A DNA stretch of 64,000 nt. It comes from Escherichia phage vB_EcoM_G2248. The translations under genes and the position numbers were made by a program. The stretch is taken from the sequence record MK327932.1. One strand, 5' to 3'. How positions within the stretch are numbered: the stretch's first letter is position 1; each line of letters starts with the position of its first letter. Below, piece by piece: positions 24,172-28,886 of the stretch. The notes beneath the pieces were generated by a model. It was not told the origin of the DNA. It saw nothing but the letters and a program-made list of their open reading frames with translations, and did no database searches.

Positions 24172-26223
24172 TTACATTTTAAATTTATCTGGCATTGCGT
24201 CTACAGATACCAGATCAGCGATAAGCTGACGTAGAGTTGCCTTATCTGCTTTCTTACGTTCGGTTTTAGCTTCGCTAATGAAGCTGGAGAAAGACAGGTC
24301 AGAAGCAGGTTTAACAACACCTTCACGGATGAATGCATCACCGTCCGCGATCATCTCGCCAGATTCTTGTAATGCTGCCAGTTCATTTTTGTTCATAATA
24401 TGTGCCTCAATGTAATAAGTTTCTTGTGAATCCGTCGATGCCGTAGCACGAGTTACCGTATCAAAGGATAACACAACACCGCGAGGAAGTAAAATCTCGC
24501 ATTCTTTGTAAGCAAATGCTTTGTTACCTACTGGCAAGACAGGGATGTTTTCCGCGCCAGCAATGGAGAAAGCAACATTAGCGCCACCTTCACCGCGAGA
24601 GCCAGCCATAGAATCAACACCAGCAACGGCACTAGCCACGTTTGCATTCCAGCCGCCAAAAATGTTAGGTGCAAGGGAAGTGCTCACATAGTTTTTAAAG
24701 TAAAACGCTTTTTGCTTACGTGCAGTTTCCCACATTTGCGACCGGAAGTCCATACCACGATACAGAATAGTACCCGGATCAAGTTTAACGCCATAGTTGG
24801 AGAAGGCATTATCCAGTGCATCGCACATCTTGACCAATTCTTCTGGATCTGAGATGCCTTCAAACTCTTCCAGCTTACGATCAGTTAGGAAGTTGTTCAT
24901 ATTGATGTATGCTGCATCGGCATATTCGCTCAACACAAAACCTTCCGCGCCTGGCAGATCAAGATCAATATCTGCCATCATTTCACCCATGTTACTAGCA
25001 ATTGCTTCAAACATACCGGAAGCAACATTACGCAGGGCATCGGTTTTAATCTGGGTGATATGACTACGCAGCATTTCAGCTTTTACATCTGCTGGCATAG
25101 ACTGGTCTACTCGATCCATTGCCAGGGCGGTGATCTTGTTTTCGAATACTTCCTCGCTCATGATTTCTTTTAAGCGTTTGATTGATGCTGCGATAACTTC
25201 CGCAGACAACGGATCATATTGATCCTGAACTTTTACCAGTTCGCTTACTGCGTATTTTGCATCGGCTTCGCTTTCAAAAATAGTACGCATGAAACCATAG
25301 CGAGTGATAATATCACTTGTCCAGTCATTCAGAGAACGGGCGGTTGAACGTTCTAAGGCTTGACGATCAATCAGAGTATTAAACTGTTTCTTAGGTTCGG
25401 CTTCGGTGATATCTTCTTCCGGTTTAAGATTAATTTTTTCTGGATGATTCACATAGTCGCTGTTATAGGTCGCTTGAGTTTTCAGCATTTCTTCTTTAGT
25501 CAAACGAGATTTAGCCGCTACGCGTTGTTCCGCTTCCGCGTTTCGTTCTTCTTCTGACACCAGACTAGCCGCATACGCCTCATCTTTAGTCAGAGATTCA
25601 CCAGTAGCCTTAGATACCCAGCGATCACCTAAATCACTTTCTACTTTAGTGAACAAGGAATCATCAAGTTTAATCCCTTTAATCTTATCAATCGCCATAC
25701 CGCGACGCTTGACAACAACTAAAGCGATCTTTTTGCTGGTCATTACTTCCTGCTGGAATACTTCAAACTTCGGTGTACGACGCACCAAACGCTCTATAAC
25801 GCGCTTAACCAGTTCGGTCTTACCTTTCATGCGGGATACGTTAAAACGGAACATAACAGCGTCTAATTGCGCTTTACGGGCTGTTTCCATAACCACATCA
25901 AAAGCACTTGCCATAACTGCAATCGGGTTATCGCCTAGACCATTTTTAAGCTGTACAATACGACCGCTTTTGTTCATTTCGCACAGTACAACATGTGCGG
26001 TCTTGTCACCCATACGAATGATTTTAGGTGTTTTGTTGGTGAAGTTACAAAGACGGACAATCACATCTTTATCGCGTGTCTGTACTGCAAAAAGCTGTTT
26101 AGGATTCTGCTTAGGCTTTAAGCACTGTACCGGAGCAATACTGCCAAAGTTTTCTTCCTCTTCCGTCAACAGCCATTTCTCGAAAGATTCAATCATTAGA
26201 TCGTCGATTTCTAAGTTAAACAT
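24172..26223 (-). CDS. alt: Alt ADP-ribosyltransferase (packaged, modifies host RNA polymerase in T4)
   Basis: 683 aa (T4 Alt is 682 aa); position after gene 54; ART-like C-terminal motifs. Confidence 0.8.
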   Translation of the reverse strand: MFNLEIDDLMIESFEKWLLTEEEENFGSIAPVQCLKPKQNPKQLFAVQTRDKDVIVRLCNFTNKTPKIIRMGDKTAHVVLCEMNKSGRIVQLKNGLGDNPIAVMASAFDVVMETARKAQLDAVMFRFNVSRMKGKTELVKRVIERLVRRTPKFEVFQQEVMTSKKIALVVVKRRGMAIDKIKGIKLDDSLFTKVESDLGDRWVSKATGESLTKDEAYAASLVSEEERNAEAEQRVAAKSRLTKEEMLKTQATYNSDYVNHPEKINLKPEEDITEAEPKKQFNTLIDRQALERSTARSLNDWTSDIITRYGFMRTIFESEADAKYAVSELVKVQDQYDPLSAEVIAASIKRLKEIMSEEVFENKITALAMDRVDQSMPADVKAEMLRSHITQIKTDALRNVASGMFEAIASNMGEMMADIDLDLPGAEGFVLSEYADAAYINMNNFLTDRKLEEFEGISDPEELVKMCDALDNAFSNYGVKLDPGTILYRGMDFRSQMWETARKQKAFYFKNYVSTSLAPNIFGGWNANVASAVAGVDSMAGSRGEGGANVAFSIAGAENIPVLPVGNKAFAYKECEILLPRGVVLSFDTVTRATASTDSQETYYIEAHIMNKNELAALQESGEMIADGDAFIREGVVKPASDLSFSSFISEAKTERKKADKATLRQLIADLVSVDAMPDKFKM

Positions 26224-26573: not shown

Positions 26574-26754
26574 TTTAGAACATTTTTGAAATTAATTCTG
26601 CTTTGATTTCGCAGAGAACATCTAAAGATTTCTCGTCACCCGCTTTTGCTGCTTCTGCTTGCATTTTTGAAATGGCTTCAATCTCAGTGCAATTATAAGC
26701 CGCTTGAACTTTAGCGATTGCGATGATTGCCGATTCGATGGTTAAGTGTTTCAT
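26574..26754 (-). CDS. Small hypothetical early protein (~59 aa)
   Basis: ORF below the track cut-off, preceded by a PeSL cassette and GGAGAATCAAACATG start context. Confidence 0.4.
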
Positions 26755-26816
26755 GTTTGATTCTCCTTTCGTTTCGGTATGTGTGCATTATAGGGGATCG
26801 GTGACCCCCTGTCAAC
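26755..26816 (-). promoter_or_regulatory. PeSL-like early promoter cassette
   Basis: Minus strand: TTGACA, GGGGGTCACCGATCCCC (palindromic 17-nt spacer), TATAAT, leader, GGAGAATCAAACATG. Confidence 0.65.
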
Positions 26817-26822
26817 AACTTT

Positions 26823-27341
26823 TTAGTTATTTTTTAATTGTTCATCTTGCAATAATGCAATCACATGCTGGCGATGTTCTTCCGATTGAGGCACACCGAA
26901 AAAGTTTGTTTTGTAGAAATACTCTAATCGGTCTTCTCGTGTGCTCTCTTCCATCATGATCGCGGGTAGTCCGAGATTTCGGAAACGTCGCTTTTCTGCT
27001 GGCGTAAAATCACTGTAATACAACATAGAATCATCATTACCAGCAATGCTAAACTCATCATTCATGAAGGAGAATATTGCGTTTAAACGCTGTTTACCGT
27101 CCACGATTTCGATCTCATAGCGAGAGCCATCATCAATCTTAGCCATTGCGATAGCACCAACCGGAAAATCATTAATCAGGTTTTCGATAAACATACGTTT
27201 GTTTTCGGTGTCCCATACCAAAGGACGCTGATAATCTGGGTTCATGTTGATATATCCATCTTCTAACCACGCCTCATAAACAGAGATGACAAAGTTTTTA
27301 GTATTGGTATAGTAACGGCGTTTAGGCGTTAAACGGTTCAT
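26823..27341 (-). CDS. DUF262 / ParB-like (GmrSD N-terminal-type) domain protein
   Basis: Motifs DYQRPLVW and VDGKQRLNAI match the ParB/Srx-fold DUF262 signature ((Y/F)QR...W, DG.QR); ATG at 27341 with AGGAGA RBS, TAA-ATG coupling to the upstream gene. Confidence 0.55.
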   Translation of the reverse strand: MNRLTPKRRYYTNTKNFVISVYEAWLEDGYINMNPDYQRPLVWDTENKRMFIENLINDFPVGAIAMAKIDDGSRYEIEIVDGKQRLNAIFSFMNDEFSIAGNDDSMLYYSDFTPAEKRRFRNLGLPAIMMEESTREDRLEYFYKTNFFGVPQSEEHRQHVIALLQDEQLKNN

Positions 27342-27342
27342 G

Positions 27343-27675
27343 TTATAGTCTCCTGAATGGATCATCACGTAAATCAATATCTTTTAAGAACTCATCCCAT
27401 GAATGGCGGATATTGTTCTTAATTCTCCAGATAAGCGCAGGGATTGAACGCTCTCCCATCTGGAAGTATGGATCATATGATCCGTATGCCCAATATGCTA
27501 CTACAATTCCACAATCAGCGCAATAGTATTCTATTTCACTTGCTGGCGACCAAAGTCCATCAATATGATCGGTGATCTTGCTTTCGATGTTATGGCTATG
27601 ACAATCAGGGCAACGGATGCAATGACCTTGTTTATCGTAATTTGACGTTAGCGAATACTTAAACAATCTCATCAT
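27343..27675 (-). CDS. Zinc-finger protein (110 aa)
   Basis: CIRCPDCHSH ... CADCG: two CxxC pairs. Confidence 0.45.
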   Translation of the reverse strand: MMRLFKYSLTSNYDKQGHCIRCPDCHSHNIESKITDHIDGLWSPASEIEYYCADCGIVVAYWAYGSYDPYFQMGERSIPALIWRIKNNIRHSWDEFLKDIDLRDDPFRRL

Positions 27676-28388
27676 AGATCCTTATTTGCTTCAAATACTG
27701 CCTTTGCGAATCCTCGCGGGGTAAGTGACCTGATAGTCTTTGTTTTCGTTCCTTTCCCGCCTAGCTTAGAATGCTGTTTACTGTACCCTTTATTAATCTG
27801 CAAAGGTTTCTTTTCTGGCATTATAAAGCCTTGTCCGGTCCATAAGCAAGTCTTTTTCGGGTACATATCACGGGCGGCAATATACTCAGGAAAAGTAGGA
27901 TGTTTATCATCTTCCGGCAAATAACCGCCATATTCCCACGGATGGAACATATAATCAGGCTTACGCCACATGCTAGAGATAACGCTTACAGGATTCTCTA
28001 TCATGTAGGGAACTCCTAGCCATTCACCCAAATAAGCGGTTATTTTAGCTGCCCTTACATCATGAACTTGAATCAATGGTCCTTGCTCTCGTTTCTTTCG
28101 TTCAAAGTGTGCAGCGCCACTAACAGCTAAATTGGTGCACGGTGGGAATGCAAAGATAATATCCGGTTTCCCCCATTCAAGGTCCATTGCTCTTTCCAGC
28201 CAGTTCAAATCAATCCATGTGTTTACATAGGTAATGTTTGGATGTTCAAATCGGGTATTATACTTTTTGTATGTACCGTGGTCGCCATCGTCAGCATTAA
28301 AGCAGATCACCTTATGACCTGCTTTAGCCCATTCTAACCCCATTATCCCCGATCCGTCAAAGTTGCAGAATATTAATTTTTGTTTCAC
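27672..28388 (-). CDS. C5-cytosine DNA methyltransferase-like protein (238 aa, compact)
   Basis: Motif I-like FCNFDGSGIMG (F.G.G), motif IV-like FAFPPCTNLAVSG (PC...S.G) and motif VI-like MIENP (ENV-type), with spacing resembling C5-MTase catalytic cores; lacks an obvious target-recognition domain. Confidence 0.45.
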   Translation of the reverse strand: MKQKLIFCNFDGSGIMGLEWAKAGHKVICFNADDGDHGTYKKYNTRFEHPNITYVNTWIDLNWLERAMDLEWGKPDIIFAFPPCTNLAVSGAAHFERKKREQGPLIQVHDVRAAKITAYLGEWLGVPYMIENPVSVISSMWRKPDYMFHPWEYGGYLPEDDKHPTFPEYIAARDMYPKKTCLWTGQGFIMPEKKPLQINKGYSKQHSKLGGKGTKTKTIRSLTPRGFAKAVFEANKDL

Positions 28389-28636
28389 GCTGCCCCCATT
28401 GGTTTGATAGTAACAGAATCTAAAAGACCTTTGTTAGCCAGTTCGCGGCAAGTTTTCAGATCCGCAACTTCCCAGCCAGCCGCAATCAGGTTGTCAATGA
28501 GGCTGTTAGCAACTTCTTCGCTCATGAAAGAGCACTGTTTGCCGATGGTGTAGCGTACACGCTGTAATTTCAGTTTACGGAAGCCTTTAACGTTCAGGTC
28601 TTTAGCGATTTTCTTTGCGGTTTCGATGTTAGCCAT
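28385..28636 (-). CDS. Small hypothetical protein (83 aa), first gene of the operon
   Basis: ORF directly after a PeSL promoter; ATGA overlap with the MTase-like gene. Confidence 0.45.
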   Translation of the reverse strand: MANIETAKKIAKDLNVKGFRKLKLQRVRYTIGKQCSFMSEEVANSLIDNLIAAGWEVADLKTCRELANKGLLDSVTIKPMGAA

Positions 28637-28706
28637 TGTTTGATTCTCCTAAGTGGTATCTCGTCTTGATGGTTGCATTGTAGGGGAGTTATCCTCCCCT
28701 GTCAAC
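28637..28706 (-). promoter_or_regulatory. PeSL-like early promoter cassette
   Basis: Minus strand: TTGACA, GGGGAGGATAACTCCCC palindromic spacer, TACAAT, leader, RBS. Confidence 0.6.
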
Positions 28707-28721
28707 ACTTTTTATAAAATT

Positions 28722-28886
28722 ATTTGTTAATTTCTGGTGCGTTGCTAGGATAGTAACCTTCTTTAACTCCGAGGTATTTCGCAACCATCCCTACAATCTT
28801 CTGTGCTACTACAATGTCAAATTTCAGATAATCTTCGCCGTGGGTTTCAATGATATATGCTTCACATGCTGCTTTAGTCTCGAACA
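28722..28886 (-). CDS. Small hypothetical protein (~55 aa), duplicated gene copy 1
   Basis: MFETKAACEAY...; near-identical at nucleotide level to the copy at 32000..32167, including flanks. Confidence 0.45.

What the first reader, a model, noticed from the sequence alone, without database searches (positions are those of the whole stretch)
26823..28706. Early operon: small protein, C5-methyltransferase-like enzyme, zinc-finger protein and DUF262/ParB-like protein
Four tightly coupled minus-strand genes (ATGA and TAATG overlaps) sit behind one early promoter cassette in the hyperplastic block. The 238-aa protein carries C5-cytosine methyltransferase-like motifs (F.G.G; PPC...S.G; ENP) in the expected order and spacing but is unusually compact and lacks an obvious target-recognition domain. 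The last gene has the DUF262 signature (DYQRPLVW, DGKQRLNAI) of the ParB/Srx fold found in GmrSD-type modification-dependent restriction enzymes, here without a DUF1524 nuclease. A pyrimidine-C5-modifying enzyme partnered with a ParB-like NTP-binding protein and a zinc finger is not a canonical T4 module. It could be a DNA-modification or anti-restriction system, or a modification-sensing module. Function is inference only.
Basis: partly seen in the sequence, partly recalled or inferred. Interest (0 to 1): 0.8.

Follow-up and report, generated by a model that had tools for sequence, protein, structure and literature searches.

The report
Phage Dcm-like methylase with unrelated neighbours
This is one early operon in the variable region of an RB49-like (Krischvirus) coliphage; it carries a compact cytosine-C5 DNA methyltransferase from a large phage family that already has a tested member, and its three small neighbours (an orphan protein, a zinc-ribbon protein and a nuclease-less DUF262 protein) sit beside it only in this phage genus, so there is no evidence for a new multi-gene modification system.

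Summary
Four tightly packed minus-strand genes (83, 238, 110 and 172 aa) lie between two PeSL early-promoter cassettes in a window that is 98-99% identical to phages RB49 and JSE.

- **172-aa protein:** It is a genuine but compact, nuclease-less DUF262 (Pfam E 4e-20).
- **Partnership:** It is not supported. Of 80 IMG/VR loci carrying the methylase, only the one Krischvirus locus has the other three genes. In 12 further non-Krischvirus loci, only one of the three families was present each time. Extra ORFs are inserted between the genes in some Krischviruses.

Verdict: a known orphan methylase plus independently shuffled accessory genes. The roles of the DUF262, zinc-ribbon and 83-aa proteins remain unknown.

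The parts
28656..28719 (-). Upstream PeSL early-promoter cassette: -35 TTGACA, a GC hairpin (GGGGAGGATAACTCCCC) and -10 TACAAT. It drives the four-gene unit.
   Evidence: Promoter scan, 11/12 matches, at 28705..28677; member of repeat family D2; sequence read; the PeSL concept comes from PMC2839356.
28385..28636 (-). 83-aa ORFan found only in Krischvirus (phrog_14908; RB49p190 ortholog). Function unknown.
   Evidence: PHROG E 5e-59; tblastn finds it in only 56 phage records, all at least 95% identical; weak hits to the C-terminus of RT_UG35 and to a PPR-like hairpin.
27672..28388 (-). 238-aa compact Dcm-like C5-cytosine DNA methyltransferase (RB49p189 ortholog). Motif I is F10xGSG, the catalytic residue is P82-P83-C84, motif VI is E131-N-P, and K178/K179 are also conserved.
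27343..27675 (-). 110-aa four-cysteine zinc-ribbon protein (phrog_2993; RB49p188 ortholog). Function unknown.
   Evidence: PHROG E 5e-34; weak Pfam Zn_Ribbon_TF hit; CxxC...CxxC and the YWAYGSYxP motif are conserved in Nonagvirus, Felixounavirus and Gorganvirus homologs.
26823..27341 (-). 172-aa compact stand-alone DUF262 (GmrS-like, ParB/Srx-fold) protein with no nuclease domain (RB49p187 ortholog). Invariant motifs are YQR (37-39), DGKQR (81-85) and NfxGVPQSEEH (146-156).
   Evidence: Pfam GmrSD_N E 4.4e-20; PADLOC NsnA E 6e-21; the family profile hits solved DUF262 proteins 9jfl, 20yv and 7p9k in the PDB; alignment A2; the closest relatives are 160-185 aa.
26768..26842 (-). Downstream PeSL cassette that ends the unit and starts the next small gene (59 aa, 26754..26575).
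   Evidence: Promoter scan, 12/12 matches, at 26815..26787; repeat family D1.

Best explanation
The four genes form one PeSL-bounded early transcription unit in a hyperplastic (variable) region of an RB49-like Krischvirus.

The only component with an assignable activity is the 238-aa protein. It is a compact, orphan, SAM-dependent DNA cytosine-C5 methyltransferase of the phage 'Dcm-like' family. Expressed early from a sigma-70 promoter, it would flip a target cytosine and attack C6 with Cys84, with Glu131 protonating N3, and transfer a methyl group to C5 at a limited set of sites. This is inferred to protect newly made phage DNA from site-specific restriction enzymes. The cost is that the enzyme can be sensed by 5mC-dependent defences such as retron Ec86.

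The 83-aa ORFan, the zinc-ribbon protein and the nuclease-less DUF262 protein are independent accessory genes. PeSL-mediated modular shuffling placed them next to the methylase; they are not obligate partners of it.

What is shown: the gene structure, the fold, motif conservation, homology to the tested enzyme, and the lack of conserved linkage. What is inferred: activity of this particular ortholog, its target sequence (CCWGG was proposed for the K42 enzyme but never mapped rigorously), its anti-restriction role, and any role for the three neighbours.
For: - **Identity of the window:** 98-99% identical to RB49 and JSE.
- **Transcription unit:** PeSL promoters flank the block and none lies inside it.
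- **Motifs:** FxGxG, PPC, ENP and the KK pair are invariant in 43 homologs.
- **Link to a tested enzyme:** 55% full-length identity (E 1e-91) to KarlJaspers Bas06_0055. The 711-bp dcm gene of K42, a phage whose genome is 95.4% identical to KarlJaspers, raised 5mC in Ec86 msDNA by LC-MS. It triggered the retron unless C82, E128, K175 and K176 were mutated. These residues align with window C84, E131, K178 and K179.
- **Family size:** 7,310 database proteins, the 120 closest all 219-259 aa, and 1,517 phage records.
- **No global modification:** RB49 DNA is cut by HpaII and NheI (PMC4041780), and the Krischvirus TB34 has no detectable modified nucleoside (PMC13390438). Both fit sparse, site-specific methylation.
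- **No conserved linkage:** among 80 IMG/VR methylase loci with up to 6-kb flanks (some cut short by contig ends), only the single Krischvirus locus contains the 83-aa, zinc-ribbon or DUF262 genes (phmmer, family HMMs). In 12 other non-Krischvirus loci exactly one of the three families was present.
- **Separate distributions:** DUF262 homologs occur in Pseudotevenvirus, Slopekvirus, Karamvirus and ST64B. Zinc-ribbon homologs occur in Nonagvirus, Felixounavirus and Gorganvirus. The 83-aa gene is Krischvirus-only.
- **Indels inside the block:** ORF189.1 sits between the 83-aa and methylase genes in RB49, TB34, SAP and kaaroe. A 59-aa ORF sits between the zinc-ribbon and DUF262 genes in kaaroe.
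Against: - The window protein scores below Pfam's DNA_methylase threshold (14.4 against 22 bits, residues 10-100 only), and neither the single sequence nor the family profile hits a solved MTase by sequence. The assignment therefore rests on fold, motifs and family membership.
- No methylation data exist for any Krischvirus, and HPLC-MS of TB34 reported no modified base. That could mean the enzyme is inactive or does not act on the phage genome, although about 0.3% 5mC might escape detection (my estimate from 33 CCWGG sites per 64 kb).
- The loop before motif IX differs between the window enzyme (GYSKQH) and the K42 enzyme (DNPGW), so the target sequence may differ.
- All four genes are kept together in all 56 Krischvirus records that have any of them. 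These genomes are 95-100% identical, so this cannot separate selection from shared ancestry, and a lineage-specific functional link is not excluded.
Confidence: 0.72

Rival explanations
1. The first reader's module: the methylase, the zinc-ribbon protein and the DUF262 NTP-binding protein work together as one DNA-modification, anti-restriction or modification-sensing system. For example, the ParB-fold protein might load or target the methylase, as the ParB-like ATPase DpdB assists DpdA in 7-deazaguanine DNA modification.
For: The genes are translationally close-packed behind a single promoter. All four are retained in all 56 Krischvirus records. ParB-CTPase-fold domains are often fused to DNA methyltransferases in phages (PMC12704722). 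The DpdA/DpdB precedent is from my own knowledge and was not checked here.
Against: None of 79 non-Krischvirus methylase loci has either partner within up to 6 kb. None of six non-Krischvirus DUF262 loci and none of three zinc-ribbon loci has a methylase neighbour. Unrelated ORFs are inserted between the genes in RB49 and kaaroe. The homologous K42 Dcm works when expressed alone from a plasmid. The fusions reported in the literature involve PF02195 with N6/N4 methyltransferases, not DUF262 with C5 methyltransferases.
Confidence: 0.08
2. The 238-aa protein keeps the C5-MTase fold but does not methylate the phage genome. It might be inactive on duplex DNA, act on RNA/tRNA or single-stranded DNA, or serve to methylate host DNA or host defence nucleic acids.
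Confidence: 0.15
3. The compact nuclease-less DUF262 protein is the key element. It would be a phage decoy or poison subunit that binds host GmrSD-family (DUF262-DUF1524/HNH) type IV restriction enzymes, shielding DNA that the neighbouring methylase has marked with 5mC.
For: It keeps the YQR, DGxQR and NxxG motifs of GmrS domains but has no nuclease. BrxU, a GmrSD-family enzyme, cuts 5mC DNA (PMC13390438). Natural type IV systems exist that pair a ParB_n-only GmrS with a GmrSD (PMC12373910), so heteromeric DUF262 contacts are plausible.
Against: There is no experimental or structural support. The AF2 model was too poor to analyse (pLDDT 53.5). Homologs occur in phages with no Dcm-like neighbour. 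The invariant NTP-binding motifs suggest an enzyme or switch rather than a passive decoy.
Confidence: 0.05

Closest known systems
Phage 'Dcm-like' compact C5-cytosine methyltransferase (K42 / KarlJaspers Bas06_0055; phrog_757)
   Same: Same length class (236 vs 238 aa). 55% identity over the full length. The same catalytic residues (C82/E128/K175/K176 align with C84/E131/K178/K179). The same DNMT3-like minimal fold. Both are orphan genes with no cognate nuclease.
   Different: The host phage is a T4-like myovirus rather than a Drexlerviridae siphovirus. The loop preceding motif IX differs (GYSKQH vs DNPGW), so the target sequence may differ. No activity data exist for the Krischvirus ortholog.
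E. coli Dcm / M.EcoRII and M.HhaI-type bacterial C5-MTases (Pfam PF00145)
   Different: About 90-230 residues shorter. Only a roughly 65-residue insert (about residues 146-212) sits where the TRD lies. No recognisable motif VIII QxRxR or motif X GNxV by eye. Below the Pfam gathering score.
DNMT3A/3B catalytic domain
   Different: 13-19% identity. DNMT3 is eukaryotic, has regulatory domains and works as an oligomer with CpG specificity. HpaII cutting of RB49 argues against CpG methylation here.
GmrSD-family type IV restriction enzymes (GmrS/DUF262 N-domain; BrxU, SspE)
   Same: The 172-aa protein matches Pfam GmrSD_N above threshold. It shares the YQR and DGxQR motifs with solved DUF262 proteins.
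   Different: No DUF1524 or HNH nuclease. The domain is condensed to about 165 residues. It is phage-encoded, and its closest relatives are all nuclease-less.
PeSL-bounded gene modules of RB49/phi1 hyperplastic regions (Arbiol et al. 2010, PMC2839356)
   Same: The unit is flanked by the repeated promoter-stem-loop cassettes and shows indel polymorphism between close relatives.
   Different: None of note; this block is an ordinary example.

Membership tests
C5-cytosine DNA methyltransferase (fold level) | Class I Rossmann MTase core whose closest structural neighbours are C5-MTases | tested here: met
C5-cytosine DNA methyltransferase (fold level) | Motif I FxGxG (SAM binding), motif IV PC with the catalytic Cys, and motif VI ENV-like Glu, in that order | tested here: met
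   F10/G12/S13/G14, P82/P83/C84 and E131/N132/P133 are invariant in 43 homologs.
C5-cytosine DNA methyltransferase (fold level) | Pfam PF00145 DNA_methylase at or above the gathering score | tested here: not met
   14.4 bits against a cutoff of 22, residues 10-100 only. Three of the 120 listed family members carry a precomputed PF00145 hit.
C5-cytosine DNA methyltransferase (fold level) | A distinct target-recognition domain between motifs VIII and IX | tested here: inconclusive
   Only a conserved insert of about 65 residues (146-212) is present. About 190 of 238 residues align to the DNMT3B core. Whether the insert reads DNA sequence could not be tested.
Phage Dcm-like compact MTase family (phrog_757; K42/KarlJaspers Dcm) | Full-length homology to the experimentally tested member | tested here: met
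   phrog_757 E 2.1e-90; BLASTP 55% identity, E 1e-91, 238/236 aa.
Phage Dcm-like compact MTase family (phrog_757; K42/KarlJaspers Dcm) | Conservation of the residues whose mutation abolished K42 Dcm function (C82, E128, K175, K176) | tested here: met
   They align with C84, E131, K178 and K179. C84, E131 and K178 are invariant in A1; K179 is the consensus residue there but is not on the invariant or near-invariant lists.
Phage Dcm-like compact MTase family (phrog_757; K42/KarlJaspers Dcm) | Formation of 5-methylcytosine in DNA, and the target sequence | not testable with these tools
   Needs bisulfite or nanopore methylome data, or enzymology. The literature gives only negative bulk data for Krischvirus DNA.
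DUF262 / GmrS N-terminal domain (Pfam PF03235) | Profile match above the gathering score with the YQR and DGQQR-type motifs | tested here: met
   73.1 bits against 33.2; Y37-Q38-R39 and D81-G82-K83-Q84-R85 are invariant; the family profile hits PDB DUF262 proteins at E 9e-5 to 8e-4.
GmrSD-type modification-dependent restriction enzyme | A DUF1524 or HNH nuclease domain, fused or encoded next door | tested here: not met
   The protein ends at residue 172. Neighbouring ORFs are 59-110 aa with no nuclease hit. The best 150 relatives end with the DUF262 unit, and their N-terminal extensions have no Pfam domain.
Conserved multi-gene modification module (methylase + zinc ribbon + DUF262) | Gene neighbourhood conserved across unrelated genomes | tested here: not met
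   1 of 80 IMG/VR methylase loci (the Krischvirus one) has the partners; 0 of 12 other non-Krischvirus loci combine two of the families.

The most novel reading that the evidence does not exclude
The compact, nuclease-less DUF262 proteins of phages form a large family: 5,023 representative clusters at E <= 1e-10. The closest relatives are 160-185 aa stand-alone proteins or about 280-aa forms with an unknown N-terminal extension. This family could be an uncharacterised class of NTP-dependent anti-defence factors. One possibility is poison subunits or decoys for host GmrSD/BrxU/SspE-type enzymes. In Krischvirus such a factor would sit beside a Dcm-like methylase because 5mC-marked phage DNA needs cover from 5mC-dependent type IV restriction.
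Probability: 0.07. Interest if true: 0.7.

Novelty: new member of a known kind. Interest (0 to 1): 0.22.

Why it matters
The practical value is in annotation and prediction. Krischviruses are usually described as having unmodified DNA, yet they carry a conserved early-expressed C5-cytosine methylase from a family now known to trigger retron Ec86.

This predicts sparse, motif-specific 5mC in their DNA. It also predicts sensitivity differences on hosts carrying EcoRII-like enzymes, 5mC-dependent type IV enzymes or retron Ec86. Those differences are relevant because RB49-like phages (phi1, JSE, GEC-3S) are used or proposed for therapy.

The analysis also shows that tight operon packing in T4-type hyperplastic regions is not evidence of functional partnership. 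The compact DUF262 and zinc-ribbon families remain open but modest questions.

Tried and rejected
- **Sequence searches of solved structures:** the 238-aa and 172-aa proteins gave nothing as single sequences. The methylase family profile also found no MTase.
- **NCBIfam:** no hits for the 83-, 238- or 172-aa proteins, and only weak sub-threshold zinc-ribbon hits for the 110-aa protein.
- **DUF262 structure:** the prediction from a 9-sequence alignment was poor (pLDDT 53.5), so I did not fold-search it. One fold-search slot was left unused.
- **DUF262 homolog search:** the word-indexed search returned only 9 proteins. The exhaustive representative search was needed to see the family.
- **N-terminal extensions:** Pfam scans of the longer DUF262 relatives found no second domain.
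- **PDB searches of the two small proteins:** the zinc-ribbon search returned only chance-level hits. The 83-aa search gave designer-PPR hits whose E-values are sums over many repeats, with no single significant stretch, so I do not take them as homology.
- **CCWGG count:** 33 observed against 55.7 +/- 7.2 expected. The site is mildly depleted, but this does not identify the enzyme's target.
- **Link to the hmC/glc-hmC report for Krischvirus SAP (PMC13390438):** rejected as an explanation. SAP and its unmodified sister phage TB34 encode identical proteins in this locus.
- **Gene 42:** I did not scan the window for gene 42. Published statements say RB49 and Krischvirus lack dCMP hydroxymethylase.
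Full report
**What the window is.** The region 26700-28800 is 98-99% identical to Escherichia phages RB49, JSE and more than 50 other Krischvirus genomes. The block lies just upstream (in the minus-strand reading direction) of the Alt-like ADP-ribosyltransferase gene at 24172-26223. It sits in the run of small early genes that RB49 annotates as RB49p187-p190.

**Check of the observation.**
- Four minus-strand ORFs are present: 83 aa (28636..28385), 238 aa (28388..27672, GTG start), 110 aa (27675..27343) and 172 aa (27341..26823).
- The junctions are GTGA, ATGA and TAAcATG.
- Near-consensus sigma-70 promoters with a GC-rich hairpin between the -35 and -10 hexamers lie immediately upstream (28705..28677) and downstream (26815..26787) of the block. 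No such cassette lies inside it.
- These promoters belong to a repeated cassette family. It corresponds to the PeSL cassettes described for RB49 and phi1 as mediators of modular shuffling (PMC2839356).

**The 238-aa protein.**
- Pfam's DNA_methylase model only grazes it (E 0.027, 14.4 bits against a cutoff of 22, residues 10-100). Sequence searches of the PDB find nothing.
- It does match phrog_757, "DNA methyltransferase", at E 2e-90.
- It belongs to a very large, length-uniform family: 7,310 database proteins, the 120 closest all 219-259 aa, and 1,517 phage records.
- In a 43-member alignment the following are invariant: F10, G12, S13 and G14 (motif I); P82, P83 and C84 (motif IV, the catalytic Cys); E131, N132 and P133 (motif VI); and K178.
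- An AlphaFold2 model built on that alignment is confident (pLDDT 90.2, pTM 0.89).
- Foldseek's best PDB matches are the DNMT3A/3B catalytic domains (E about 1e-7).

**The family already has a tested member.**
- A preprint on retron Ec86 (bioRxiv 10.1101/2023.08.16.553469) isolated escape mutants of phage K42. K42's genome is 95.4% identical to that of KarlJaspers/Bas06. The mutations mapped to a 711-bp "Dcm-like" gene.
- Expressing that gene alone triggered the retron and raised 5mC in msDNA by LC-MS.
- A C82A/E128A/K175A/K176A mutant was inert.
- The authors also modelled their enzyme on DNMT3A.
- I retrieved the 711-bp KarlJaspers gene (Bas06_0055). The window protein is 55% identical to it over the full length (E 1e-91). 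C84, E131, K178 and K179 align with the four mutated residues.
- The CCWGG specificity quoted there is carried over from host Dcm. Its only support is loss of defence when the msDNA CCTGG motif is mutated, so it is not rigorously established.
- The window enzyme has a different loop just before motif IX (GYSKQH against DNPGW). Its target may therefore differ.

**Published data on Krischvirus DNA fit sparse methylation.**
- RB49 DNA is cut by the 5mC-sensitive enzymes HpaII and NheI (PMC4041780).
- TB34 showed no detectable modified nucleoside by HPLC-MS (PMC13390438).
- The window has 33 CCWGG sites in 64 kb, against 55.7 +/- 7.2 expected. If that were the target, 5mC would be about 0.3% of cytosines (my estimate). 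That level could be missed in bulk assays.

**The 172-aa protein.**
- It matches Pfam GmrSD_N/DUF262 well above threshold (E 4.4e-20, 73 bits) and PADLOC NsnA.
- A family profile hits solved DUF262 proteins, including 7p9k, through the YQR and DGxQR motifs.
- Invariant residues are Y37-Q38-R39, D81-G82-K83-Q84-R85 and N146...G149-V-P-Q-S-E-E-H156.
- An exhaustive profile search found 5,023 representative clusters at E <= 1e-10. The closest are 160-185 aa stand-alone proteins. The next group is about 270-290 aa, with the compact DUF262 unit at the C-terminus and an N-terminal extension with no Pfam domain.
- It is thus a genuine nuclease-less compact DUF262 family, not a truncated GmrSD.
- The structure prediction failed (pLDDT 53.5), so I did not fold-search it.

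**The 110-aa and 83-aa proteins.**
- The 110-aa protein (phrog_2993, E 5e-34) has two conserved CxxC pairs and a YWAYGSYxP motif. Pfam zinc-ribbon support is only weak.
- The 83-aa protein (phrog_14908) occurs only in Krischvirus: 56 records, all at least 95% identical.

- I fetched 80 IMG/VR loci encoding the methylase, with up to 6 kb on each side. I searched all ORFs in them with the three neighbour proteins (phmmer). I repeated the search with small family HMMs for the DUF262 and zinc-ribbon proteins. Only the single Krischvirus locus (L016) scored; the other 79 did not.
- Starting from the DUF262 side, homologs in RB43, Morganella phage Mm5, Salmonella phage ST64B and three metagenomic phage contigs sit in unrelated contexts with no methylase or zinc-ribbon gene.
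- Starting from the zinc-ribbon side, homologs in Nonagvirus JenP1, Felixounavirus VSe11 and Gorganvirus PM-CJR have neither partner nearby.
- The host ranges of the three families in the phage database differ.
- Within Krischvirus the block itself is polymorphic. RB49, TB34, SAP, kaaroe and ECD7 carry an extra 81-aa ORF (189.1) between the 83-aa and methylase genes. That indel is bounded by a 16-nt direct repeat (window 28372-28387). Kaaroe also has a 59-aa ORF between the zinc-ribbon and DUF262 genes.
- The K42 homolog is active when expressed alone.
- The one point in favour of linkage is that all 56 Krischvirus records keep all four genes. These genomes are 95-100% identical, so this cannot be told apart from common descent.

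**Most likely mechanism.**
- The unit is transcribed early from its PeSL promoter.
- The methylase uses SAM and Cys84/Glu131 chemistry to place 5mC at a restricted set of sites on replicating phage DNA.
- Its probable benefit is protection from cognate type II and related restriction enzymes.
- Its cost is exposure to 5mC-sensing defences such as retron Ec86 and type IV enzymes.
- The fold, the motifs and the family membership are shown. The activity, target and role of this ortholog are inferred.
- The other three proteins have no supportable function. The DUF262 protein is probably an NTP-binding switch or enzyme, given its invariant motifs. A role against GmrSD-family enzymes is an attractive but untested idea.

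**Novelty and score.** The methylase is already annotated in RB49, JSE, kaaroe, TB34 and others. Its family has a characterised member. The architecture is a routine PeSL-bounded hyperplastic-region unit. I rate the finding as a new member of a known kind, with interest 0.22. What remains of interest is the large uncharacterised compact-DUF262 family and the untested methylome of phages usually described as unmodified.

Noticed in passing
L003:559-637 (phage SAP, OZ034687.1) against L004 (phage TB34, OX001802.1); equivalent to window ~26756-26835: SAP and TB34 are reported as 99.96% identical, yet SAP has hmC/glc-hmC DNA and TB34 has plain C, unexplained by SNP analysis (PMC13390438). In this locus they differ by an exact 79-bp tandem duplication of the PeSL cassette just downstream of the DUF262 gene, plus a 1-nt indel at L003:3077. 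The four proteins are identical. An SNP-only comparison could miss structural variants like this.
   Followed up: partly
window 28372-28387: The 16-nt sequence at the junction of the 83-aa and methylase genes occurs twice in RB49, TB34, SAP, kaaroe and ECD7, flanking the extra 81-aa ORF189.1 that this window (like JSE and E26) lacks. This looks like a microhomology-bounded indel inside the operon.
   Followed up: partly
window 28385-28636 (-): The Krischvirus-only 83-aa protein shows weak similarity to the C-terminal region of the DRT reverse transcriptase RT_UG35 (PADLOC E 2.6e-5, residues 12-75). Residues 43-75 resemble a single PPR-like helical hairpin (PDB designer-PPR hits, but significant only when summed over repeats).
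   Followed up: partly
whole window: CCWGG, the site proposed for the homologous K42 Dcm, is under-represented: 33 observed against 55.7 +/- 7.2 in dinucleotide-preserving shuffles, and every shuffle had at least 33.
   Followed up: partly
window 27672-28388 (-), with literature: RB49 is routinely propagated on E. coli B (PMC4041780). BL21(DE3) natively carries retron Ec86, which is triggered by the homologous K42 Dcm (bioRxiv 10.1101/2023.08.16.553469). Either the Krischvirus enzyme has a different target, or the phage counters the retron, or the native retron is too weak. This is untested.
   Followed up: no
window 24172-26223 (-): A 683-aa Alt-like RNA polymerase ADP-ribosyltransferase (phrog_802 E 6e-180; Pfam ADPrib_exo_Tox) lies just downstream of the block. 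RB49 annotates a second, shorter Alt-C-terminal paralog beyond it.
   Followed up: no
L002:2142-2321 (phage kaaroe, MN850574.1): Kaaroe carries an additional 59-aa ORF between the zinc-ribbon and DUF262 genes. Its methylase is annotated from an internal Met (223 aa), which would remove motif I, so this is probably a start-site mis-annotation.
   Followed up: partly
proteins P0129 and P0160-P0275: A second common architecture of the compact DUF262 unit is a protein of about 270-290 aa with an N-terminal extension of 110-150 residues that has no Pfam match. It is an uncharacterised domain partner.
   Followed up: partly
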